IMG/VR virus record: IMGVR_UViG_2565956724_000002
Length of the DNA stretch: 25,326 nucleotides
Strand: one strand, 5' to 3'
Source of the DNA: a virus
Taxonomy: Duplodnaviria; Heunggongvirae; Uroviricota; Caudoviricetes
Under the pieces are notes generated by a model, which worked only from the letters and a program-made list of their open reading frames with translations, did not search any database and was not told where the DNA came from. Below are positions 3,865-23,496 of this stretch, in pieces. Position 1 is the stretch's first letter; every line of letters begins with the position of its first letter. A program made the position numbers and the translations under genes.

Positions 3865-3939
3865 TGATCAAATGATCAAGTGATCACTATTTGACCTGAT
3901 AAGGTATTGAACTGTATGGATTTACAGGTGAATTGATCA
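3865..3939. promoter_or_regulatory. Cluster of four TGATCA (Dam GATC) hexamers upstream of cre
   Basis: TGATCA at 3865-3870, 3873-3878, 3881-3886 and 3934-3939. This is consistent with the described Dam-sensitive cre promoter region of P1. Confidence 0.6.
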
Positions 3940-3957: not shown

Positions 3958-3991
3958 ATAACTTCGTATAATGTATGCTATACGAAGTTAT
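3958..3991. other. loxP: loxP recombination site (34 bp)
   Basis: Exact ATAACTTCGTATA-ATGTATGC-TATACGAAGTTAT: two 13-bp inverted repeats around the 8-bp spacer. Confidence 0.98.
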
Positions 3992-4034
3992 CAGGTCAGA
4001 AGAGGAGTTTACGTCCAGCTGCGCACAAAAATCA

Positions 4035-4138: not shown

Positions 4139-4372
4139 TTTGCCGCCGTTTCGTAATACGACTTTGGATTCACTATTTAATGTGTCTTCAGCGTTGTAGA
4201 GCGGCTCAGAAGGAAATGAGCAAACAGGGAAACCTTATACAACGGCATTACAGCTATGCATTGCTCATCTTACACACAGCGCAATGTTGTTAGATTACCC
4301 CAGCATGGATCATGGGTGAAACAGTAGGTCAGAGCTTCAGGCTCTGTGTTGTCAATACAGTGAGACATAATT

Positions 4373-5576: not shown

Positions 5577-6695
5577 TTATTCAGCCGCCACCGGTTTTAA
5601 CAAGCCAGCATCGAGCAGTTTACGCGTCAACCACTGCTGGCCTTTACCCGTTAATTGAGGCGTCAACCGTATCTGGTAGCCATCTTCATCATCCAGCACC
5701 ACTTCTTTCACCGTGAAATACCCCGCGTTGATGTACTGCTGGAACGGCACATTTTTACGTCCACCGGACGCTATCAGGATGCCGTTCTCCCGTAACCAGA
5801 CAAACAGCGCGTTTTGCTTAAGTCCAACAACCTTTGCAAAATTCCCAATCAGGATCCCTTTAGCTACTGATACCCGGTCGGCAAAATCGACTTTAGGAGC
5901 GGCGGCCACCAGCTGCTGATTTAGCTGGTGGGCTTTCTGTTCCAGAAGTTGCTTTTGTTCAGCCAGTTCGGCAGCCAGGCGTAGGGCTTCAGGAAGCGTC
6001 TGGGGGATTGCGATCGGTTGCTGTTCTTTTTGTCGGAAGTAGCTGTCTTCCAGTTTTTCAAAGAATGCCCATGCCTGATCGGTTTCGAGCATTTTAGCGT
6101 GGCGGGCTGCGCCGCGTTCTGTCCAGAGGGTGAGTGAGCGAACATTGCGAGCAATTTTTACAGAGTAGTTTAAAGCTACTCTGTGCTTCAACTCGCGCAA
6201 TGATTCTCCTTCAACTTTGAAAAAGTGCTTCCCTTCAACAAAGCGTACTTTGTTCTCATGATGATTTTGGCGAATACGGATTGTTTCTGTCCCATACCCT
6301 CTAGCAAGAGTCTCGGTTGTCACTACACGCACTCCCTGCCATTCCAGAACGGGAATTTCATCAGACTGATTCTGAACAACCACCAGCTCCGATTCCTGAA
6401 CTGAAGGTGCATGAATTTTTTCTGATTTAACGTTAGTTGCTTTCATTCTGTGTGCCTCCTTGCGTGATTCGGCTGCGGCGGTTGCGTAATTCAGATGCCC
6501 CTGTTCGAGCAGGTATTCGCGGATATCAGACAGCAGGATGCGGTGAACTGCGTTCTTGTCCTTTCTCCGGTAAAGTTGTTTGGTGATCATGAAGTAGTTG
6601 GCAATAACGCCCGGTATATCCCTAGTACTGATACAGGCAGTGTGCTGTTCAATTGCCTCGATCATCTCTTCACGGGTAACTAATGACGTTCTCAT
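5577..6695 (-). CDS. Phage antirepressor-like protein (ORF6N/Bro-N-like central region, KilA-C-like C-terminus), 372 aa
   Basis: The central segment VLEWQGVRVVTTETLARGYGTETIRIRQNHHENKVRFVEGKHFFKVEGESL and the C-terminal segment ...LFVWLRENGILIASGGRKNVPFQQYINAGYFTVKEV... resemble these domain families from memory. The ATG overlaps the upstream ORF's stop (ATGA). Confidence 0.6.
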   Translation of the reverse strand: MRTSLVTREEMIEAIEQHTACISTRDIPGVIANYFMITKQLYRRKDKNAVHRILLSDIREYLLEQGHLNYATAAAESRKEAHRMKATNVKSEKIHAPSVQESELVVVQNQSDEIPVLEWQGVRVVTTETLARGYGTETIRIRQNHHENKVRFVEGKHFFKVEGESLRELKHRVALNYSVKIARNVRSLTLWTERGAARHAKMLETDQAWAFFEKLEDSYFRQKEQQPIAIPQTLPEALRLAAELAEQKQLLEQKAHQLNQQLVAAAPKVDFADRVSVAKGILIGNFAKVVGLKQNALFVWLRENGILIASGGRKNVPFQQYINAGYFTVKEVVLDDEDGYQIRLTPQLTGKGQQWLTRKLLDAGLLKPVAAE

Positions 6696-7261: not shown

Positions 7262-8463
7262 AGAGCAAGTGTTTATTCATTAAGCCATGCCAGAGCTTCA
7301 TCAACCTGCGCTTCGTCTTCGACGCTAAGCACTTCGTCCTGGGGAACATAATCCGCCAGCATAGCGAAACAATATGTATCCCAATGGTCTGGTGAGTGCA
7401 GGTTGAGTTTTTTCTTCATATCCTCCTTACTCATCACCTTCCATTGACCTGCGGAGTTAATCCCTACAGGGATTTTCGACGCTTCCTCAATAGTTTCATT
7501 ACCCTTATCCAGTCTCATACGACCAGATTTTACGGCCTCTGCGGCTTGAACGTTGGCATAAGCACGTTTATCAAAGTACAGGCTCTTATCTTCACGGCTA
7601 TGCATCTTTTTACCCCAGCGTATACGCTGTACGGTAATACCATAATACTCGTACATCAGATCCGCCGTTGCTTTACCCAGGCCATCGCCGTCTATCGCTA
7701 TGGTGATATTGGGGAATCGCTCAGGATTACATTCTGCGAAAATTTTGGCGGCAAGCTGCGTTTCTGTAACGTCTGTGTATTCCAGCATTCGATAGTTGAT
7801 TACACGGCGTTTATTTCGCTGGCCGGACACCATCATGATATTGATAAAGGACTTATCCCGTCCTGTACCACCAGCAACGTCCACACATGCAAGCCAGCCC
7901 CATCCTTTGGCAATCTTGACTTTCCGCCGCGTCGCACGTTCAACCTCATCACGTCCAAGAAGGAAGCCGTCCTGTAATTTAGGGAATAGGCCGCGTACCT
8001 TAATCATGTACATAGGGTTATCACGCCCGCCGTACTCCGCCAGCTTCATTTTGATAAATTCTGACGTTACCAGCGGTGATTCCTCACTGTTAAGCGTGAT
8101 CGCCGTATAAACGCCATCTGGGTTACCAGGACGCTTGGCCAGTTTATGGTGAGTATCGTAGAAATAGCCGCTTGGGCGTGTAGGCTGTGACAGTAATAAG
8201 ATGCGGTTATCCTGTCCGGTAAGAGCACCGGTGATGATACCGAAAGCTCTATCACTGACACCGGAGGCTTCATCGATAATATACAGAAGATGATCTGCGT
8301 GTTCACCGGCGAGAACTTCTTCACTTCCCAGACGAAAGCCCTTCGGTACTACAGTCCATACACCTTTACCAGTAGACTGGCCCCCTGAATCTCCAGACAA
8401 CCAGTATCACTTATTTAAGTGATAGTCTTAATACTAGTTTTTAGACTAGTCATTGGAGAGCAG

Positions 8464-8829
8464 ATGATTGATGTCTTAGGACCGGAGAAACGCAGACGGC
8501 GTACCACACAGGAAAAGATCGCAATTGTTCAGCAGAGTTTTGAACCGGGGATGACGGTCTCCCTCGTTGCCCGGCAACATGGTGTAGCAGCCAGCCAGTT
8601 ATTTCTCTGGCGTAAGCAATACCAGGAAGGAAGTCTTACTGCTGTCGCCGCCGGAGAACAGGTTGTTCCTGCCTCTGAACTTGCTGCCGCCATGAAGCAG
8701 ATTAAAGAACTCCAGCGCCTGCTCGGCAAGAAAACGATGGAAAATGAACTCCTCAAAGAAGCCGTTGAATATGGACGGGCAAAAAAGTGGATAGCGCACG
8801 CGCCCTTATTGCCCGGGGATGGGGAGTAA
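8464..8829 (+). CDS. insC: IS2 OrfA (InsC)
   Basis: [56 protein letters not shown]... Confidence 0.93.
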
Positions 8830-9692
8830 GCTTAGTCAGCCGTTGTCTCCGGGTGTCGCGTGCGCAGTTGCACGTCATTCTCAGACGAACCGATGACTGG
8901 ATGGATGGCCGCCGCAGTCGTCACACTGATGATACGGATGTGCTTCTCCGTATACACCATGTTATCGGAGAGCTGCCCACGTATGGTTATCGTCGGGTAT
9001 GGGCGCTGCTTCGCAGACAGGCAGAACTTGATGGTATGCCTGCGATCAATGCCAAACGTGTTTACCGGATCATGCGCCAGAATGCGCTGTTGCTTGAGCG
9101 AAAACCTGCTGTACCGCCATCGAAACGGGCACATACAGGCAGAGTGGCTGTGAAAGAAAGTAATCAGCGATGGTGCTCTGACGGGTTCGAGTTCCGCTGT
9201 GATAACGGAGAAAAACTGCGAGTCACGTTCGCGCTGGACTGCTGTGACCGTGAGGCACTGCACTGGGCGGTCACTACGGGCGGCTTCAACAGTGAAACAG
9301 TACAGGACGTCATGCTGGGAGCGGTGGAACGCCGCTTCGGCAACGAGCTTCCGGCGTCTCCAGTAGAGTGGCTGACGGATAATGGTTCATGCTACCGGGC
9401 TAATGAAACACGGCAGTTTGCCCGGATGTTGGGGCTTGAACCGAAGAGCACGGCGGTGCGGAGTCCGGAGAGTAACGGCATAGCAGAGAGCTTCGTGAAA
9501 ACGATAAAGCGTGACTACATCAGTGTCATGCCCAAACCAGACGGGTTAACGGCAGCAAAGAACCTTGCAGAGGCGTTCGAGCATTATAACGAATGGCATC
9601 CGCATAGTGCACTGGGTTATCGCTCGCCACGGGAATATCTACGGCAGCAAGCCAGTAATGGGTTAAGTGATAACAGGTGTCTGGAAATATAG
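8787..9692 (+). CDS. insD: IS2 OrfB (InsD) transposase
   Basis: [34 protein letters not shown]... contains a DDE-type integrase core and overlaps insC in the usual IS3-family arrangement. Confidence 0.93.
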
Positions 9693-10092
9693 GGGCAAAT
9701 CCAACCAGTAACCTCATAGAAAGCGGTTTCTGTCAGAACAAAATAATCAGCAAGCCATGGAAAACGGCTGGTGGCAGTAGCCCAGTTTATCTTGATGTAC
9801 TTGAATATACCGGTCATTACCTGCTGAATTTTGTTCGCAACGATAATGGCGCGGGCACCGGGATACATGATTATGAACAACATGATCATGATAGAAGTCA
9901 TGTCTGATTTCCCGGTACCGTGACCAGACGAAACAGATGTCTTGCTACCCTGTTCCTGCACAGACTCAATAATCAGATCCTGCTGCCAGGTAGGTGTTTT
10001 GCCGAACAAAACATCAGCGGCCGCAATCCAGTCATAACGATATAGCGCCACCAGCTCGCGCCAACGTGGATCCGTTACGCAACTTCTGGCCA

Positions 10093-10694
10093 TTAATCAT
10101 CATCCCCGTATAGCTTGCGGGTAACTTCTTCGTCTTCCTCCTCGTCTTCGTCCAGGTCTTGTTCCAGCCATGGGTCGTTTGATACACCTTCAGTATCAAC
10201 ATCTCCATAACCGCCTGTATCAACGATATCGGCGATTTCTTCCCTACGCTGCTCAATCCACAATGCGGCATCGGCGCGGCGGTTGGCGGCCCGTTCTCGC
10301 GCAACTTTGTCCAGATCTTCAAGAGAAGGGCCACCGACGGCTGTTTGCCTTTCCTCATCATCGGTATTGGTCTTAGGAGCACGCAGATCGGCTTTGATTT
10401 GCTCCAGCATCAGGGGCGGCACTTTCCCGCCATGCGCCTCGATGAATTCAGCTGCTTCCAGCACTGACCAGTTATTTTCACGCTTTCGTTCGTACTGTCA
10501 TCAATCAAAACAGACGAATACTTAGACACAGCGATAGCTTTTAAGCGCAGATAAACATCGCGCTTATCGACATCCAGATGCGGGTATTCCTTTTCAAGAA
10601 TTGCTGCGAGTTCTTTCGCTGATAGAAGAGATTTAGTGCGGATCATGTAATTCGCAATCTCGTACGATGTTATTCGTGAGTGATTTATTTCCAT
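10093..10694 (-). pseudogene. Small terminase-like gene immediately upstream of pacB, split across two frames (frameshift)
   Basis: One ORF (ATG at 10694, stop at 10410) has an HTH-like N-terminal part; a second, in another frame (open from 10497 to the stop at 10093), has an acidic tail DEDEEEDEE. They overlap by about 90 nt, and the final stop overlaps the pacB ATG (TAATG). Confidence 0.4.
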
Positions 10695-10794
10695 GAAGTG
10701 GCGTCCCTGCCAGTTAAGTAACATCCTGTCACCTACTGATTAGCCCATGTCAACTAATCAACGTGGAATATAATACCATCGATTAAAGAAATAG

Positions 10795-10811
10795 CAATAC
10801 ATTAGAGCAAT
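10795..10811 (-). promoter_or_regulatory. C1 operator-like site upstream of the small terminase-like gene
   Basis: The reverse complement, ATTGCTCTAATGTATTG, has the core ATTGCTCTAAT (14 of 17). Confidence 0.4.
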
Positions 10812-10812
10812 T

Positions 10813-11856
10813 TTATCTAACGCTCGACGAGTAACTTGTGATAGCGCCGACTCCAAGCGCGTAATCAAAGAACAATCGTTGATGCATCGCCAGCCTACCG
10901 TGCGTCTTCTCCCAATTATCGCGGTCACGCTCAATATCACGCTGGCATGACTGGCACAGAGGAATTGCGTAAATGTCATGCGCGCATAATCGACTATGAC
11001 GAACGATATAAGGCGTAATGTGAGCGCCAGCTCCCGCAGCTCCACAGCCACAGCATGGACGGGAAGCCACAAAGTCCATGTACTCGGGCAATTTTAGCGA
11101 TTGAAGTTTTGGTATTTTGAAATGCGCCATACCTGGGTCGGAGTCAACATCCACAGGGCATACTTTTGCACGCATCGGCGCGGCGCGTTCTTCCATCATC
11201 TGAACATATGCTGTAGCGCGATCGTCATACGGGCGAATATCCGCCTCTTTCAGAGGTCCGCTATCCTGCGGAGCAGCCTTCATCTTATTTATTGATATGC
11301 GGCAGACTTCTTCCGGCATCAGGTGCATCATGTTACGCATGAAAGCCCACCAGCACAGCTCCTGAATACTTAAATCATGGCTATCTGAAAGGCCCATTTC
11401 CTGACGGGCGACATCCAGTATCCAGTTAACGCGATTATTGTGCAGCGTTTCTTTCAGCTCATTAAAACCACGCATCCGGTAATGGTTATCGTGATGCCAG
11501 CACAACAACACCGCGCTATTGTCTCGTTCAGCGTGGACAATATGGTTGTCACACCAGCTACGATCTGCGGCCTGGCATTGCCCCTCTTTCCTGCGCAACC
11601 ACGCCACCAGCGCGTCAATTCCACCAATACGGCGAAACAGTTCATCGCTGTTAAAAAACGGCTGCAACGCCTCATTTGTTGCTATAGTTTGCTCGGAAGC
11701 AACGAGGCCGTCGTCCATGTGCTCGATTAACTCACGCGGCACCGGCTCCATAATAAATTTACGGCCAGCCTCCACCAGCTTTCTGACCTCCTGATCCACT
11801 TTGAACGTGGCGAGGCCAAGTTCTTTCTGTACAAAGGGAGTAATTACGGCTTTCAC
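10813..11856 (-). CDS. Cys/His-rich hypothetical protein (347 aa) with HNH-like motifs, upstream of the terminase genes
   Basis: GTG start with RBS AAAGGTG. Motifs [22 protein letters not shown] and CCGCG...HSRLCAHD...PLCQSC. It is not P1 PacA as I recall it, and no TGATCA pac-type cluster lies in this region. Confidence 0.45.
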
Positions 11857-11883
11857 ATCACACCTTTAATCACTGATTGGGCT

Positions 11884-12063
11884 TTATATGCTGCCCGGCA
11901 TTCTCTGTTTAAGCACAACCATTTCCTGACGGCATAACACAGCAATAGCGGTCCTGGCACCAATTTGCTTACCAGCCAGGTATTGCTTTACCTCGCGGCG
12001 ACTCACGCCATCAAGAAGCATCTTTAACGCTTCACGGGACAATTTGTTGTATTTGCGTGCCAT
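11884..12063 (-). CDS. Small hypothetical protein downstream of doc (pdc-like by position)
   Basis: 59 aa from the ATG at 12063 (MARKYNKLSREALKMLLDGVSRREVKQYLAGKQ...), directly after the doc stop. Confidence 0.4.
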   Translation of the reverse strand: MARKYNKLSREALKMLLDGVSRREVKQYLAGKQIGARTAIAVLCRQEMVVLKQRMPGSI

Positions 12064-12067
12064 TAAT

Positions 12068-12448
12068 CTACTCCGCAGAACCATACAATCTACGTAACGT
12101 GTCGGCGACAGAAGATACAGATATCTCTCCGGTCGCAGCCCCTACGGTAAGGTCTGCCAGTTCAGGTGAATCAAATACCTGCACCCCGTTACGGCGTAGA
12201 AATAACAGCGCACTGTTTAGCGCGGTACGCTTATTGGCATCATTGAATATATGCCCTCTCGCTGTAGCCACCAGGTAGGTGGCGGAGACTTCGAAAAGGT
12301 CGGTGATCTCTTCGTAGGCAACTCTGGCCTGAACTCTCCCGATAATGGCCTCTGCCCTACCCGGATCTGACATTCCCGGCAGGCCGCCGTAGCGGTTTAT
12401 ATTCGCATCATGAAGCGCAATAAGTTCTTCCGGTGATATATGCCTCAT
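12068..12448 (-). CDS. doc: Doc toxin (Fic-fold kinase) of the phd-doc addiction module, 126 aa
   Basis: [43 protein letters not shown]... matches P1 Doc nearly exactly. Confidence 0.95.
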
Positions 12449-12669
12449 TATCGGTTAACCAGTTCCTTGTTGGTGGAGTCCAGGGTGTCAAACAGGGATG
12501 CAAATTCAGCATCCAGCGCCGCTTTTTTGTAGGCTTCGAAAGTAGCCTTGCTGACAATTACTGCTGGCTCACGGCCTCTGCGGGTGATTTCAACCTCTTC
12601 CCCGGCCTCAACATTGTTGAGCACTTCAGAAAGGTTGCCGCGCGCGGTACGGAAGTTAATGGATTGCAT
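12448..12669 (-). CDS. phd: Phd antitoxin, 73 aa
   Basis: [49 protein letters not shown]... matches P1 Phd. Its stop overlaps the doc start. Confidence 0.95.
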
Positions 12670-12710
12670 AAATACCTCGTGTACTCGTTATGTGTACACA
12701 ATTATAAACT
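12670..12710 (-). promoter_or_regulatory. phd-doc promoter/operator region with a GTGTACAC palindrome
   Basis: Palindrome TGTGTACACA at 12691-12700 and a GTGTAC half-site at 12679-12684, immediately upstream of phd. Confidence 0.5.
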
Positions 12711-12845
12711 TCACAGGCATAAAGCACCAGCACTTTGCGGCTTAACAAACCTCTAGGCAGGTCATTCGTAGCCTAATGTCCGAACTGCTAAAGCATCCAA
12801 GTTGCTGTAGAATCACCGCCAATTACATAAGCCTGAAATAAGTGG

Positions 12846-13463
12846 ATGAAAATGACAAGTATTCAACAACGTGCAGAGCTTCATCGTCAAATCTGGCAAA
12901 TTGCTAACGATGTCAGGGGTTCGGTCGATGGATGGGATTTTAAGCAATACGTTCTGGGCGCACTTTTCTACCGTTTTATCAGCGAAAATTTTTCCAGCTA
13001 TATTGAAGCCGGTGATGACAGCATCTGTTATGCGAAACTGGATGACAGCGTAATTACTGATGACATTAAAGACGATGCCATCAAAACTAAAGGCTACTTC
13101 ATCTACCCCAGTCAGCTTTTCTGCAACGTAGCGGCGAAAGCAAATACCAATGACAGACTGAATGCAGATTTAAACAGCATCTTCGTTGCTATCGAAAGTT
13201 CTGCTTACGGTTATCCTTCAGAAGCTGACATCAAAGGTTTGTTTGCTGATTTCGATACCACCAGTAACCGCCTGGGTAACACCGTTAAAGATAAAAATGC
13301 CCGCCTGGCTGCGGTTCTGAAAGGGGTTGAAGGGTTAAAACTTGGTGACTTCAACGAACATCAGATTGACCTGTTCGGTGATGCCTATGAGTTCCTGATT
13401 TCTAACTATGCGGCAAATGCCGGTAAGTCAGGCGGTGAGTTCTTTACACCGCAGCACGTCTCC
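12846..13463 (+). pseudogene. hsdM: Type I restriction-modification methyltransferase HsdM, N-terminal fragment only (type IC / EcoR124-like by recollection), cut off by IS1
   Basis: [44 protein letters not shown]... ending ...[16 protein letters not shown], which reaches the HsdM FxTP motif. The ORF then runs straight into the IS1 terminus at 13464. Confidence 0.7.
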
Positions 13464-13518
13464 GGTGATGTTGCCAACTTACTGATTTAGTGTATGATGG
13501 TGTTTTTGAGGTGCTCCA

Positions 13519-13794
13519 GTGGCTTCTGTTTCTATCAGCTGTCCCTCCTGTTCAGCTACTGACGGGGTGGTGCGTAACGGCAAAAGCACTGCCGGACATC
13601 AGCGCTATCTCTGCTCTCACTGCCGTAAAACATGGCAACTGCAGTTCACTTACACCGCTTCTCAACCCGGTACGCACCAGAAAATCATTGATATGGCCAT
13701 GAATGGCGTTGGATGCCGGGCAACCGCCCGCATTATGGGCGTTGGCCTCAACACGATTTTACGTCACTTAAAAAACTCAGGCCGCAGTCGGTAA
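13519..13794 (+). CDS. insA: IS1 InsA
   Basis: [43 protein letters not shown]... Confidence 0.93.
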
Positions 13795-14216
13795 CCTCGC
13801 GCATACAGCCGGGCAGTGACGTCATCGTCTGCGCGGAAATGGACGAACAGTGGGGCTATGTCGGGGCTAAATCGCGCCAGCGCTGGCTGTTTTACGCGTA
13901 TGACAGGCTCCGGAAGACGGTTGTTGCGCACGTATTCGGTGAACGCACTATGGCGACGCTGGGGCATCTTATGAGCCTGCTGTCACCCTTTGACGTGGTG
14001 ATATGGATGACGGATGGCTGGCCGCTGTATGAATCCCGCCTGAAGGGAAAGCTGCACGTAATCAGCAAGCGATATACGCAGCGAATTGAGCGGCATAACC
14101 TGAATCTGAGGCAGCACCTGGCACGGCTGGGACGGAAGTCGCTGTCGTTCTCAAAATCGGTGGAGCTGCATGACAAAGTCATCGGGCATTATCTGAACAT
14201 AAAACACTATCAATAA
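13713..14216 (+). CDS. insB: IS1 InsB reading frame (expressed as an InsAB' fusion by frameshifting)
   Basis: ...[65 protein letters not shown]... Confidence 0.9.
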
Positions 14217-15424
14217 GTTGGAGTCATTACCCGAATGATGGTTGCCCATACATCAAAGGACTGGTTAACCGGCAGAGCGATGTCAAAGGTGTCGGTCGCA
14301 AGAGTACGCCAGATCATGATGCGAAGACGCAGCATATCCTGTTCATGAGACAGGTATTCCTTCAGGGTGCGGAACTGTAGGGAACCCAGGTCCAGACCAA
14401 ATTCACGCTGTGCTTCATACGCCGCCTGTACCGTGTGCTCAGCCGCGATAACGAACTGGCTTGGGAACAGGGTGTATTTCTTCATTTCGTGGTTGATCAG
14501 CGGGATCAGCTCAGGAGCGGCTTCAATATTGATTTCCGTCTCAATTGCGATCTCAGTGCCTTTATCCGGCGCTTTGGAGAACGACAGGGAAATCTGACCA
14601 ATGTTGTAGTTCAGAGAGCAGGTAACAGTGATTTGCTCACCAGCAGCATTAGTAAACGAGTGAAGTAGGCTGCCGGAACCGTTATCAACAACAGACTTAA
14701 TACGGTTAACGTAGATGTTAGTGCGACCTTTTCGGATTGGTACATTCTGGCCTTCGAAGTCTTCCATCTTGAAGGTTGCGGTTTTGCTGGTGCCATCGGA
14801 GCTTGCCACCAGCACATAGCGGCGGCGTAACTGGCTGTACACACCGACGGATTGCATGTCCAGAACATCACCAGCAGCATAAGAACCAAAAGAGGAACCT
14901 GCCACGTTAAAGACTTCATAGATGTCGGACTGGTCACGCGTAACCGGAATGAAGGTACACGCATCAGCGGTAGCTGCCCCCAACTGAACAGGCAGGATCA
15001 TCGCGAGGAATAAAGGCAGACGCATAACACCGTCAGAAACGCTCATCATCTCTGCTGCGACGGATTCCAGCATCGCTTTATTAGTGGCATCCATGCTATT
15101 GCGGGTGGACTCAATCAGGCAGTTTTCCAGCGTCTGGTGGCAGGAGGCCAGAATTTCCGGACGCGGCATAGATTTATGTGCTGCGGCGTAGTCAGCCAGT
15201 GCACTTGCCCACGCGGTAGCAATTTGAGCGGTGGCATTATCAGAGATACCCGCAAAAATTGGGTCTTTACGTGCAGCTTCAAGGATAGATGCGGCACGCG
15301 CGGCATCATCTTTGATGAATTGGTTATCAGTACCGAACTGTGCTGTACTTGCCCAGCCAAGAACGGCTTTAGAGCGTTTTGCGATATCTGCAATACGATT
15401 CTGGTATTCGCGTAAGTTACTCAA
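14210..15424 (-). pseudogene. Capsid-like structural protein gene (P1 gene 23-like by position next to par), with its 3' end lost at the IS1 junction
   Basis: Probable TTG start at 15424 with RBS AAGGAAG. The last ~6 codons and the stop lie inside the IS1 terminus. The identity is inferred from position and composition only. Confidence 0.35.
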
Positions 15425-15483
15425 GTTACTCTTCCTTAAACACAAGGCACTTGTGTGAATCCCTTTTCGGAAGAGATTTTATT

Positions 15484-21960: not shown

Positions 21961-23496
21961 ATGAACGATACCTCTTCTGACGACATCCTTCTGCTGAAAC
22001 AGCGCCTGGCCGAACAGGAAGCGTTGATCCACGCCCTGCAGGAAAAGCTGAGCAACCGGGAACGCGAAATAGACCATCTGCAGGCGCAACTGGATAAGCT
22101 GCGCCGGATGAACTTCGGCAGTCGTTCCGAAAAGGTATCCCGCCGTATCGCGCAAATGGAAGCTGACCTGAACCTGCTGCAGCAGGAAAGCGATACGCTG
22201 ACCGGCCGGGTGGATGACCCGGCAGTGCAGCGCCCGCTGCGTCAGACCCGCACCCGCAAACCGTTCCCTGAGTCACTCCCACGGGATGAGAAGCGGCTGC
22301 TGCCGACTGAGCCGTGTTGCCCGGAGTGCGGTGGTTCGCTGAGTTACCTGGGTGAGGATGCCGCCGAACAGCTGGAGCTGATGCGCAGCGCCTTCCGGGT
22401 TATCCGGACAGTCCGTGAAAAGCATGCCTGCCGTCGGTGCGATCGCATCGTTCAGGCCCCGGCTCCTTCGCGCCCCATCGAACGGGGGATCGCCGGACCG
22501 GGGCTGCTGGCCCGAGTGCTGACCTCAAAGTATGCAGAGCACACACCGCTGTATCGCCAGTCGGAGATCTATGCCCGCCAGGGTGTAGTGTTGAGTCGTT
22601 CTGTACTGTCGGGCTGGGTGGATGCGTGTTGTCGTCTGCTGGCACCGCTGGATGAAGCCCTTCAGCACTATGTCCTGACCGACGGCAAACTCCATGCTGA
22701 CGATACGCCTGTCCCGGTGCTGTTGCCGGGCAATAAGAAGACGAAGACCGGGCGCTTATGGACGTACGTTCGAGACGACCGCAACGCCGGATCAGCGCTG
22801 GCCCCCGCAGTGTGGTTCGCTTACAGCCCGGACAGAAAAGGTATCCACCCTCAGACCCATCTTGCAGGCTTCAGTGGCGTACTGCAGGCTGATGCCTACG
22901 CCGGGTTCAACGAGCTCTACCGCGACGGCCATATAAAGGAAGCCGCGTGCTGGGCCCATGCCCGCCGAAAAATCCACGATGTTCACGTCCGTACCCCGTC
23001 AGTCCTGACGGAGGAGGCGCTGAAACGGATCGGCGAGCTGTATGCCATCGAGTCGGAGATCAGAGGTAAAAGAGCAGAGGAACGGCAGGCAGTCCGGCAC
23101 CAAAAAGTGCTGCCGCTGCTGGCGTCACTGGAGGGGTGGCTGCGGGAGAAACAGAAAACCCTCTCAAGGCACTCAGAACTGGCGAAGGCGTTCGGGTATG
23201 CGCTGAACCAGTGGCCGGCGCTGATCCGCTATGCAGAAGATGGCTGGGTGGAGGTGGATAATAACATTGCCGAAAACGCCCTACGACGGGTCAGTCTGGG
23301 GAGAAAAAACTGGCTGTTCTTCGGCTCGGATCATGGTGGTGAGCGCGGTGCGTCACTGTACAGTCTTATCGGGACGTGCAAATTAAACGGCGTGGATCCG
23401 GAACGCTATCTGCATTATGTACTTGATGTCATCGCCGACTGGCCTGTGAACCGGGTGGGTGCTCTGCTCCCGTGGCGGGTTACTCTGCCTGCCTGA
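21961..23496 (+). CDS. tnpC: IS66-family transposase TnpC (511 aa)
   Basis: N-terminal coiled coil, a CxxC...CxxC zinc motif (CCPECG...CRRCD) and a DDE region, as in IS66 transposases. Confidence 0.85.
   Translation: MNDTSSDDILLLKQRLAEQEALIHALQEKLSNREREIDHLQAQLDKLRRMNFGSRSEKVSRRIAQMEADLNLLQQESDTLTGRVDDPAVQRPLRQTRTRKPFPESLPRDEKRLLPTEPCCPECGGSLSYLGEDAAEQLELMRSAFRVIRTVREKHACRRCDRIVQAPAPSRPIERGIAGPGLLARVLTSKYAEHTPLYRQSEIYARQGVVLSRSVLSGWVDACCRLLAPLDEALQHYVLTDGKLHADDTPVPVLLPGNKKTKTGRLWTYVRDDRNAGSALAPAVWFAYSPDRKGIHPQTHLAGFSGVLQADAYAGFNELYRDGHIKEAACWAHARRKIHDVHVRTPSVLTEEALKRIGELYAIESEIRGKRAEERQAVRHQKVLPLLASLEGWLREKQKTLSRHSELAKAFGYALNQWPALIRYAEDGWVEVDNNIAENALRRVSLGRKNWLFFGSDHGGERGASLYSLIGTCKLNGVDPERYLHYVLDVIADWPVNRVGALLPWRVTLPA

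What the first reader, a model, noticed from the sequence alone, without database searches (positions are those of the whole stretch)
10093..11856. Terminase-proximal region lacks a recognisable P1 pacA and pac site
Upstream of pacB I expected a ~397-aa pacA containing the TGATCA pac cluster. Instead there is a ~200-aa small-terminase-like gene split across two frames, with a stop overlapping the pacB ATG, preceded by a 347-aa Cys/His-rich ORF with His-Me-finger-like motifs. No TGATCA cluster is present here. Either pacA has been reshaped by indels into a pseudogene, or this element uses a different small-terminase/HNH arrangement.
Basis: partly seen in the sequence, partly recalled or inferred. 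Interest (0 to 1): 0.55.

Follow-up and report, generated by a model that had tools for sequence, protein, structure and literature searches.

The report
Deletion scar in defective P1-like plasmid
The "odd small terminase" is the scar of one 1,097-base deletion in a P1-type phage-plasmid. The deletion fused the front half of the late-gene activator lpa to the tail of the packaging gene pacA and removed the pac packaging site, so this is an ordinary, already catalogued, decayed prophage-plasmid and not a new packaging system.

Summary
The window has no full-length pacA, no TGATCA (pac) cluster in 10093-11856, and two short ORFs in different frames upstream of pacB. The interpretation needs correcting.

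- **What happened:** compared with intact P1-like phages (RCS47 99.6%/97.8% identical on the two flanks; P1), a single 1,097-bp segment is missing. The junction is a 3-bp microhomology (GTA, 10492-10494).
- **What was joined:** lpa codons 1-78 (10724-10491) are joined out of frame to pacA codons 265-397 (10494-10096).
- **What was lost:** the 3' half of lpa, the late promoter LPpac, pacA codons 1-264, and the whole pac site (both hexamer clusters, the IHF site and the cleavage positions).
- **The 347-aa Cys/His-rich ORF:** this is PdcB (DUF968, His-Me finger superfamily). It is 97% identical to P1 PdcB, sits in its normal place, and is non-essential in P1. It is not a terminase partner.
- **Other damage:** pacB is split by IS2 (8373-9703, 5-bp duplication ACCAG). 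Further on, IS1 truncates the capsid gene 23.
- **Not an artefact:** the identical junction is in 3 complete RefSeq E. coli plasmids, where it is annotated as pseudogenes. The exact 104-aa fusion ORF is on 410 public contigs.

Verdict: a real but ordinary feature, namely a packaging-dead, late-transcription-dead P1-derived plasmid lineage. Low interest.

The parts
11884..12084 (-). pdcA, intact (66 aa), ordinary P1 gene downstream of doc
   Evidence: tblastn with P1 PdcA residues 1-65, 96.9% identity. Same position in P1 and RCS47.
10813..11856 (-). pdcB, intact (347 aa).
   Evidence: Pfam DUF968 at 170.4 bits against a cut-off of 27.8. PHROG 96 'HNH endonuclease' full length, E 1.3e-128. 336/347 identical to P1 PdcB and 340/347 to RCS47 PdcB. 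Invariant C268xxC271, H293-D294 and C301xxC304.
10770..10811 (-). Plpa sigma-70 promoter (-10 at 10770-10775, -35 at 10792-10797) and the C1 operator Olpa (10795-10811), all intact
   Evidence: Positions transferred from the P1 annotation. Olpa ATTGCTCTAATGTATTG, the -35 TTGCTA and the -10 TATTAT are identical to P1, with one mismatch in the 91-bp intergenic region.
10491..10724 (-). lpa remnant: codons 1-78 of 150 (late promoter activator, N-terminal half only)
   Evidence: tblastn with Lpa residues 1-78, 98.7% identity. Pfam BPP1_LPA positions 1-64 of 131, whereas full-length Lpa covers 1-130.
10410..10724 (-). 104-aa chimeric ORF: Lpa residues 1-78 plus 26 out-of-frame residues read from pacA DNA
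   Evidence: Translation compared with Lpa. The exact sequence is on 410 public contigs. PHROG 26110 matches it end to end.
10492..10494 (.). Deletion junction: the 3-bp microhomology GTA shared by both parental flanks. 1,097 bp are missing relative to RCS47 (L001 3792-4888) and P1 (L002 3481-4577).
   Evidence: Base-by-base comparison of the window with both RCS47 flanks. BLAST segment coordinates.
10093..10494 (-). pacA remnant: codons 265-397 plus the stop. No start codon of its own gene, no LPpac, no pac site.
   Evidence: 133/133 identical to the RCS47 PacA C-terminus and 123/133 to P1. PHROG 1711 'terminase' profile positions 277-402 of 417. PGAP calls it 'terminase, incomplete, missing N-terminus' in three RefSeq plasmids.
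9704..10093 (-). pacB 5' fragment (codons 1-130), cut off by IS2
   Evidence: tblastn with RCS47 PacB residues 1-130, 100% identity.
8373..9703 (+). IS2 (1,331 bp) inserted in pacB, flanked by the 5-bp target duplication ACCAG (8368-8372 and 9704-9708)
   Evidence: Homology to RCS47 breaks at 8374 and 9704. The IS2 ends and the duplication were read directly. RefSeq annotates 'IS3-like element IS2 family transposase' at the same place.
7273..8372 (-). pacB 3' fragment (about codons 127-494)
   Evidence: tblastn with RCS47 PacB residues 127-494, 97.8% identity.

Best explanation
**What it is.** The window is part of a P1-like (Punavirus, RCS47/SJ46-type) plasmid-prophage. A single illegitimate-recombination deletion of 1,097 bp, with its ends joined at a 3-bp microhomology, removed:
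- the 3' half of lpa
- the Lpa-dependent late promoter LPpac
- the first 264 codons of pacA
- the entire pac site that lies inside pacA.

**What is left.**
- An out-of-frame lpa'-'pacA chimera. It is still driven by the intact C1-controlled promoter Plpa.
- An orphan pacA tail abutting pacB.
- pacB, which is separately broken by an IS2 insertion.

**The 347-aa ORF.** This is the ordinary, intact P1 gene pdcB.

**Inferred consequence.** The element cannot switch on late genes (no functional Lpa). It cannot recognise or cut its DNA for packaging (no pac, no PacA, no PacB). It therefore survives only as a plasmid, using repA/parAB, phd-doc and cre-lox, all of which are still present in the window.

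**Shown versus inferred.** Shown: the deletion, its endpoints, what it removed, the IS2 insertion, and the spread of the allele. Inferred: loss of lytic competence, from the published essentiality of lpa, pacA and pacB in P1.
For: **The deletion**
- Window 9704-10494 aligns to RCS47 L001 3001-3791 at 99.6%. Window 10492-12700 aligns to L001 4889-7097 at 97.8%. The same 1,097-bp gap appears against P1.
- The junction, read base by base, shows the GTA overlap.

**What the deleted interval holds in intact phages**
- In P1 it contains the annotated pac cleavage positions, the IHF site and LPpac.
- In both P1 and RCS47 it contains 11 TGATC[AG]/[CT]GATCA hexamers, including the two clusters that flank the cut site.

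**What remains in the window**
- Only PacA residues 265-397 and Lpa residues 1-78 are found, in different frames.
- The deleted DNA is nowhere else in the window.

**The second lesion**
- IS2 sits in pacB with a 5-bp target duplication.

**Evidence that it is not an artefact**
- The identical 401-bp junction region occurs in three finished E. coli plasmids from different hosts and countries: CP010179, CP061751 and JBRAVH010000003. PGAP annotates both remnants there as pseudogenes.
- About 650 other P1-like records carry the two halves at separate places.
- The exact fusion ORF is on 410 contigs. A version with the ancestral D25 allele is on 22 more.
- The window is 100% identical to KI538793.1 over positions 410-20724.

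**Functional inference**
- lpa, pacA and pacB knock-downs each reduce P1 plating to below 1.2e-7, whereas pdcB gives 0.68 (PMC10695390).
- Conversion of P1-like phage-plasmids into plain plasmids by gene loss is documented (PMC10879196).
Against: - No experiment here shows that the element is non-inducible.
- A helper P1-like phage could supply Lpa, PacA and PacB in trans, although the missing pac site could not be complemented.
- Only 25 kb of a 110-kb contig was examined, so the state of the other late genes is mostly unknown. Gene 23 is the exception: it is truncated by IS1.
- The order of the two lesions (deletion and IS2) is unresolved, because no intermediate with only one of them was found.
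Confidence: 0.95

Rival explanations
1. A sequencing or assembly error, meaning frameshifts or a collapsed region in a draft scaffold. Under this reading the true sequence has an intact lpa and pacA.
For: The window comes from a draft scaffold (KI538793.1).
Against: - The junction region is 100% identical in three finished circular plasmids from unrelated isolates: sheep carcass USA, human urine New Zealand, and strain H15.
- The exact fusion ORF is called on 410 contigs from NCBI, ENA, JGI and Logan assemblies.
- The difference from intact phages is a clean 1,097-bp gap with flanks at 98-99.6% identity, not scattered indels.
Confidence: 0.01
2. A genuinely different packaging module: a short (~200 aa) small terminase working with an HNH (His-Me) nuclease next to the large terminase, as in HK97-like cos phages.
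For: - PdcB belongs to the His-Me finger superfamily (PMC5714182; PHROG 96).
- It lies about 0.7 kb upstream of the terminase remnants.
Against: - The '~200 aa gene' is two remnants of different genes in different frames.
- pdcB sits in the same position in P1, P7, RCS47 and SJ46, all of which have full-length lpa and pacA.
- pdcB is dispensable for P1 growth.
- The large-terminase homologue pacB is itself destroyed by IS2.
Confidence: 0.01
3. The deletion is the repair scar of a pacase cut. On this reading pac was cleaved in a plasmid prophage during abortive or leaky induction, both ends were resected about 0.5 kb, and they were rejoined by microhomology-mediated end joining. The survivor was left with no lpa, pacA or pac. 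This is a sub-hypothesis about how the deletion arose and is compatible with the best explanation.
For: - The annotated pac cleavage positions (L002 3988-3997) lie 507 bp and 580 bp from the two deletion ends, that is, within 37 bp of its midpoint.
- The junction has only 3 bp of microhomology, which is typical of end joining and not of homologous or IS-mediated recombination.
Against: - The centring was noticed after the fact. A random deletion that covers pac would be this well centred about 7% of the time.
- Replication slippage or other illegitimate recombination, followed by selection for loss of lytic functions, explains the scar equally well.
- No independent deletions were available to test for recurrence.
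Confidence: 0.15

Closest known systems
Bacteriophage P1 / RCS47 lpa-pacA-pacB region (Punavirus; AF234172, FO818745)
   Same: - Same gene order: phd, doc, pdcA, pdcB, Plpa/Olpa, lpa, pacA, pacB.
- Flanks are 98-99.6% identical to RCS47, and 94% identical overall to P1.
- The pacA stop overlaps the pacB start by one base, as in P1.
   Different: - 1,097 bp are missing: lpa codons 79-150, LPpac, pacA codons 1-264 and the pac site.
- pacB is interrupted by IS2.
[quoted passage not shown]
   Same: - A P1-like backbone that keeps the plasmid maintenance genes (repA, parAB, phd-doc, cre-lox) but has lost essential phage functions through deletions and IS activity.
- One sister plasmid (CP010179) is typed mobilizable with a MOBH relaxase, matching their observation that such plasmids acquire mobilisation functions.
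   Different: I did not check whether these particular plasmids are in that paper's data set. The specific lpa'-'pacA junction is not mentioned in the passages I read.
E. coli plasmids CP010179 (H15 plasmid A), CP061751 (O15:H12 2273-PO3) and JBRAVH010000003 (22AR0118)
   Same: - Identical deletion junction (401/401 bp).
- Identical pacB::IS2 junction (120/120 bp).
- Same neighbouring type I R-M, phd-doc, pdcAB, ant, c1 and cre genes.
- PGAP already flags both remnants as pseudogenes.
   Different: - The window additionally has IS1 joining a truncated hsdM to a truncated gene 23.
- Its ant gene is intact, whereas ant is frameshifted in those three plasmids.
DUF968/DUF1364 prophage proteins YdfU and YbcO (His-Me finger group 7; PDB 3g27)
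   Same: - PdcB matches Pfam DUF968 strongly.
- It has the CxxC...H...CxxC pattern.
- Its weak structural matches are enriched for HNH proteins, including YbcO and P1 Ref.
   Different: - PdcB is much longer (347 aa), with an extra central domain carrying an invariant CWHHDNH motif.
- Nuclease activity and biological role are unknown.
- The structural model is poor (pLDDT 57.6).

Membership tests
P1 PacA (pacase subunit A, pac-recognition subunit) | Full-length ~397-aa ORF immediately upstream of pacB, overlapping its start | tested here: not met
   Only residues 265-397 are encoded (10494-10096). Nothing of residues 1-264 is found anywhere in the window. The stop/start overlap with pacB is retained.
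P1 PacA (pacase subunit A, pac-recognition subunit) | pac site inside the gene: two clusters of TGATCA/G hexamers flanking the cleavage site and an IHF site | tested here: not met
   Zero hexamers in 10093-11856. The homologous hexamer clusters and the annotated cleavage and IHF sites all lie within the deleted 1,097 bp of P1 and RCS47.
Lpa late promoter activator (Pfam PF25716 BPP1_LPA) | Complete ~131-position domain in a 150-aa protein | tested here: not met
   The window ORF matches profile positions 1-64 only. RCS47 Lpa matches 1-130. Residues 79-150 are replaced by 26 out-of-frame residues.
PdcB / DUF968 (His-Me finger superfamily group 7) | Pfam DUF968 match above the gathering score, plus the conserved Cys4/His pattern | tested here: met
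   170.4 bits against a cut-off of 27.8. C268, C271, H293, D294, C301 and C304 are invariant in 13 homologues down to 37% identity. [quoted passage not shown]
PdcB / DUF968 (His-Me finger superfamily group 7) | beta-beta-alpha-metal fold | tested here: inconclusive
   - The AF2 model has mean pLDDT 57.6.
- The C-terminal beta-beta-alpha element (E281-285, E296-300, H302-310) is modelled at pLDDT 50-75 only.
- Sequence and profile searches of the PDB found nothing.
HNH-plus-terminase packaging module (HK97-type cos phages) | An HNH nuclease required for, and working with, the terminase in genome cutting | tested here: not met
   - pdcB knock-down leaves P1 plating at 0.68, whereas lpa, pacA and pacB give below 1.2e-7 (PMC10695390).
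- pdcB is separated from pacA by lpa and its own promoter in all intact relatives.
- Direct biochemical interaction cannot be tested here.
IS2 simple insertion | 1,331-bp element with IS2 ends and a 5-bp direct target duplication | tested here: met
   8373-9703 is 1,331 bp, with ACCAG on both sides. RefSeq names it an IS2-family element at the same place.
Defective P1-derived plasmid (phage-plasmid turned plasmid) | P1 plasmid-maintenance genes retained while essential phage genes are inactivated | tested here: met
   - Still present: repA, parA, parB, phd, doc, cre, loxP and c1.
- Disrupted: lpa, pacA, pacB and gene 23.
- Loss of inducibility itself cannot be tested with these tools.

The most novel reading that the evidence does not exclude
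The 104-aa Lpa(1-78) chimera may be more than debris. It is still transcribed from the intact C1-controlled Plpa promoter and keeps a complete N-terminal domain, which matches PHROG 1704 positions 1-79 and the N-terminus of Ant-type anti-repressors. It could act as a dominant-negative Lpa fragment that blocks late transcription of superinfecting or co-resident P1-like phages. That would give this widespread plasmid lineage (about 430 or more contigs) a selective advantage. The evidence does not exclude this. There is too little sequence variation among copies to test for purifying selection.
Probability: 0.05. Interest if true: 0.5.

Novelty: already known. Interest (0 to 1): 0.12.

Why it matters
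It matters mainly as a correction. The region is not a new terminase or HNH packaging arrangement. It is a decay scar, so it should not be mined as a novel system.

Three minor practical points follow:
- **Typing.** pacA has been proposed as a conserved PCR marker for P1-like phage-plasmids (PMC9603915). This lineage, on 410 or more contigs in E. coli and Salmonella, could give misleading results with primers placed in the first 792 bp of pacA.
- **Database hygiene.** The remnant ORFs have been turned into stand-alone 'protein families' in PHROGs (26110 and 23417).
- **Phage-plasmid biology.** It is a clean, datable example of one event knocking out the late activator, the packaging site and a pacase subunit together. 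That fits the published picture of P1-like phage-plasmids turning into plain plasmids.

Tried and rejected
- **Pfam and NCBIfam on the pacA remnant, the pacB fragments and PdcA:** no hits. Uninformative; identity came from DNA and protein comparison with P1 and RCS47 instead.
- **phmmer and profile search of PdcB against PDB sequences:** nothing, even at E<=10.
- **Exact-match scan of IMG/VR viral contigs for the 39-nt junction:** 0 hits. The allele was found instead through the protein-identity index.
- **Was the TGATCA x4 cluster at 3865-3939 a relocated pac site?** Rejected. It corresponds to the annotated Dam-methylation sites in the cre regulatory region next to loxP in P1.
- **Search for intermediates with only pacB::IS2 or only the deletion, to order the events:** none among complete E. 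coli genomes or the 10 sampled contexts.
- **IS-mediated deletion as the mechanism:** considered and rejected, because no IS end abuts the junction.

Full report
**1. What the window is.** Megablast of 9600-12700 against phage records gives near full-length matches to P1-like phages. SJ46, RCS47 and relatives score 98.1-98.5%, and P1 and P7 about 94%. Each match comes in two pieces that span about 4.1 kb of the phage for 3.0 kb of the window. The annotated order in RCS47 and P1 is phd, doc, pdcA, pdcB, lpa, pacA, pacB, all on the window's minus strand. The window is 100% identical over positions 410-20724 to scaffold KI538793.1 of assembly GCA_000495075.1.

**2. The observation.**
- There is no long ORF where pacA should be.
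- There are two short ORFs in different frames: 10724-10410 (104 aa) and 10464-10093 (123 aa).
- A TAA stop (10095-10093) overlaps the pacB ATG (10093-10091).
- A 347-aa ORF (11856-10813) has 12 Cys and 15 His.
- No TGATCA, or any TGATC[AG]/[CT]GATCA hexamer, lies in 10093-11856.

**3. What really happened.**
- *Alignments.* BLAST of the window against the RCS47 locus shows window 9704-10494 equal to L001 3001-3791 (99.6%). Window 10492-12700 equals L001 4889-7097 (97.8%). The same break appears against P1.
- *Junction.* Base-by-base comparison places it at a 3-bp overlap, GTA (10492-10494). 1,097 bp are absent.
- *Reading frames.* On the minus strand, lpa codons 1-78 are joined to pacA codons 265-397 one base out of frame. 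The lpa reading frame runs 26 codons into pacA DNA and stops at 10410. This yields the 104-aa chimera.
- *The pacA tail.* The pacA frame (133 codons, 133/133 identical to RCS47 and 123/133 to P1) has lost its start.
- *No relocation.* tblastn with full-length PacA and Lpa, and blastn with the deleted 1,097 bp, find nothing else in the window.
- *Family matches agree.* The upstream ORF matches Pfam BPP1_LPA positions 1-64 of 131 and PHROG 1704 'Lpa-like transcriptional activator' 1-79 of 148. The downstream frame matches PHROG 1711 'terminase' positions 277-402 of 417. Full-length RCS47 Lpa covers 1-130 of the Pfam model.

**4. What was lost.** In the P1 annotation the deleted interval (L002 3481-4577) contains the primary pac cleavage positions (3988-3997), the IHF site (4005-4017) and the late promoter LPpac (4308-4326). 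It also contains the pacA start and the lpa 3' end. In both P1 and RCS47 it holds 11 pac-type hexamers, including the two clusters on either side of the cut. The missing TGATCA cluster is therefore explained directly by the deletion. Upstream, the C1 operator Olpa and the -35 and -10 elements of Plpa are identical to P1, so the chimera is probably still transcribed under C1 control.

**5. Other damage.**
- *pacB.* It is split by a 1,331-bp IS2 (8373-9703) with a 5-bp target duplication, ACCAG. PacB residues 1-130 and about 127-494 lie on either side.
- *IS1.* Further right, IS1 (13464-14231) joins a truncated type I hsdM to a truncated major head gene 23.
- *Still present.* The plasmid functions repA, parA, parB, phd-doc, cre, loxP (3958-3991) and c1 remain.

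**6. Not an artefact, and not unique.**
- *Junction in finished plasmids.* The 401-bp junction region is 100% identical in three finished E. coli plasmids: H15 plasmid A, O15:H12 2273-PO3 from a sheep carcass in the USA, and 22AR0118 from human urine in New Zealand. About 650 other P1-like records hold the two halves at separate places.
- *Both lesions travel together.* The same three plasmids, and only those, also carry the identical pacB::IS2 junction.
- *Existing annotation.* PGAP annotates the remnants as 'terminase, incomplete, missing N-terminus' and 'hypothetical protein, missing C-terminus'.
- *Public assemblies.* The exact 104-aa chimera is on 410 contigs, named from E. coli and Salmonella enterica. 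A version with the ancestral D25 residue is on 22 more, and every cluster member has the same junction.
- *Sampled contexts.* Ten sampled contexts all show IS2, or a further deletion from it, in pacB.
- *PHROGs.* PHROGs already contains 'families' that are just these remnant ORFs (26110 and 23417).
- *Interpretation.* A 3-bp-microhomology junction is unlikely to recur identically. This is best read as one ancestral event inherited by a successful plasmid lineage (inference).

**7. The 347-aa protein.**
- *Identity.* It is PdcB, 336/347 identical to P1 and 340/347 to RCS47, in its usual place.
- *Family.* It matches Pfam DUF968 (170 bits) and PHROG 96 'HNH endonuclease'. DUF968 together with DUF1364 forms group 7 of the His-Me finger superfamily, with YbcO (3g27) as the known structure (PMC5714182).
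- *Conserved residues.* An alignment of 13 homologues shows invariant C268xxC271, H293-D294 and C301xxC304. It also shows a second invariant motif, C119-W-H-H-D-N-H125.
However, pdcB is non-essential in P1 (EOP 0.68), while lpa, pacA and pacB are essential (below 1.2e-7) (PMC10695390). It is a fixed neighbour of lpa in all intact relatives. It is not evidence for an alternative packaging arrangement.

**8. How it 'works'.** It does not; this is a scar. The element lacks the late activator, the packaging site and both pacase subunits. By inference it is locked into plasmid life. This is the route described for P1-like phage-plasmids that become plain plasmids through gene loss, sometimes gaining mobilisation functions (PMC10879196). 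One sister plasmid is typed IncY, mobilizable, MOBH.

How the deletion arose is open. The junction indicates illegitimate recombination or end joining. The pac cut site lies 507 and 580 bp from the two ends, which is compatible with repair of a pacase-made break. That observation was made after the fact and is weak.

**9. Verdict.** The first alternative (pseudogene) is right in outcome but wrong in mechanism. The second alternative (a new small-terminase/HNH arrangement) is wrong. The feature is real, ordinary, and already flagged in RefSeq.

Noticed in passing
window 13464-14231 (IS1), with 12846-13463 and 14232-15445: A 768-bp IS1 joins a 5'-truncated-product type I R-M hsdM (only about 206 of 518 codons remain) to a C-terminally truncated major head gene 23. 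So hsdS, hsdR and an unknown amount of P1 DNA are deleted or rearranged here. The sister plasmids have an intact hsdMSR at this place.
   Followed up: partly
window 3865-3939 and 3958-3991: The only TGATCA cluster in the window (4 copies in 75 bp) is not pac. It corresponds to the annotated Dam-methylation sites in the cre regulatory region (P3cre) of P1, next to an intact loxP.
   Followed up: yes
window 10093-10494 versus 10492-12700: Mosaicism: the pacA tail and pacB head are only 84% identical to P1 but 99.6% to RCS47. The lpa-pdcB-doc-phd side is about 98% identical to both. The deletion junction therefore also sits near a P1/RCS47 divergence boundary.
   Followed up: no
window 10410-10724 and 10096-10410: PHROGs v4 families 26110 (104 positions) and 23417 (105 positions) match the two remnant ORFs end to end. 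Pseudogene fragments of this scar have thus been catalogued as protein families of 'unknown function'.
   Followed up: partly
window 5577-6695: The ant (anti-repressor) gene is an intact 372-aa ORF here. It is annotated as frameshifted with an internal stop in the three finished plasmids that share the deletion. The lineage is therefore accumulating different secondary lesions.
   Followed up: no
window 11482-11590 (PdcB residues about 90-125): PdcB has a second invariant Cys/His motif (C94, C119-W-H-H-D-N-H125). It lies in the only confidently modelled part of the protein (residues 60-180, pLDDT 80-94) and is distinct from the C-terminal CxxC...H...CxxC HNH-like element. Its function is unknown.
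   Followed up: partly
L010 (KE136820.1, 2.37-Mb scaffold, GCA_000408025.1): The same defective element appears on a chromosome-sized scaffold, with a second partial copy of hsdM-phd-doc-pdcA-pdcB' about 6 kb away, next to IS elements. This could be chromosomal integration, duplication or a scaffolding artefact.
   Followed up: no
window 21961-23496: A 511-aa transposase (PHROG 688, full length) lies among P1 backbone genes. It is probably another IS insertion. An IS66-like ISEc22 element is annotated in a related plasmid.
   Followed up: no
window 12448-12846 region; note in the P1 annotation: The P1 GenBank record notes that its phd-doc flank is 98% identical to the sequence upstream of the EcoDXXI hsd locus of a conjugative plasmid. 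This lineage carries a type I R-M, whose HsdR has an EcoR124_C domain, exactly at that flank. This suggests these plasmids are relatives of the classical EcoDXXI plasmid.
   Followed up: no
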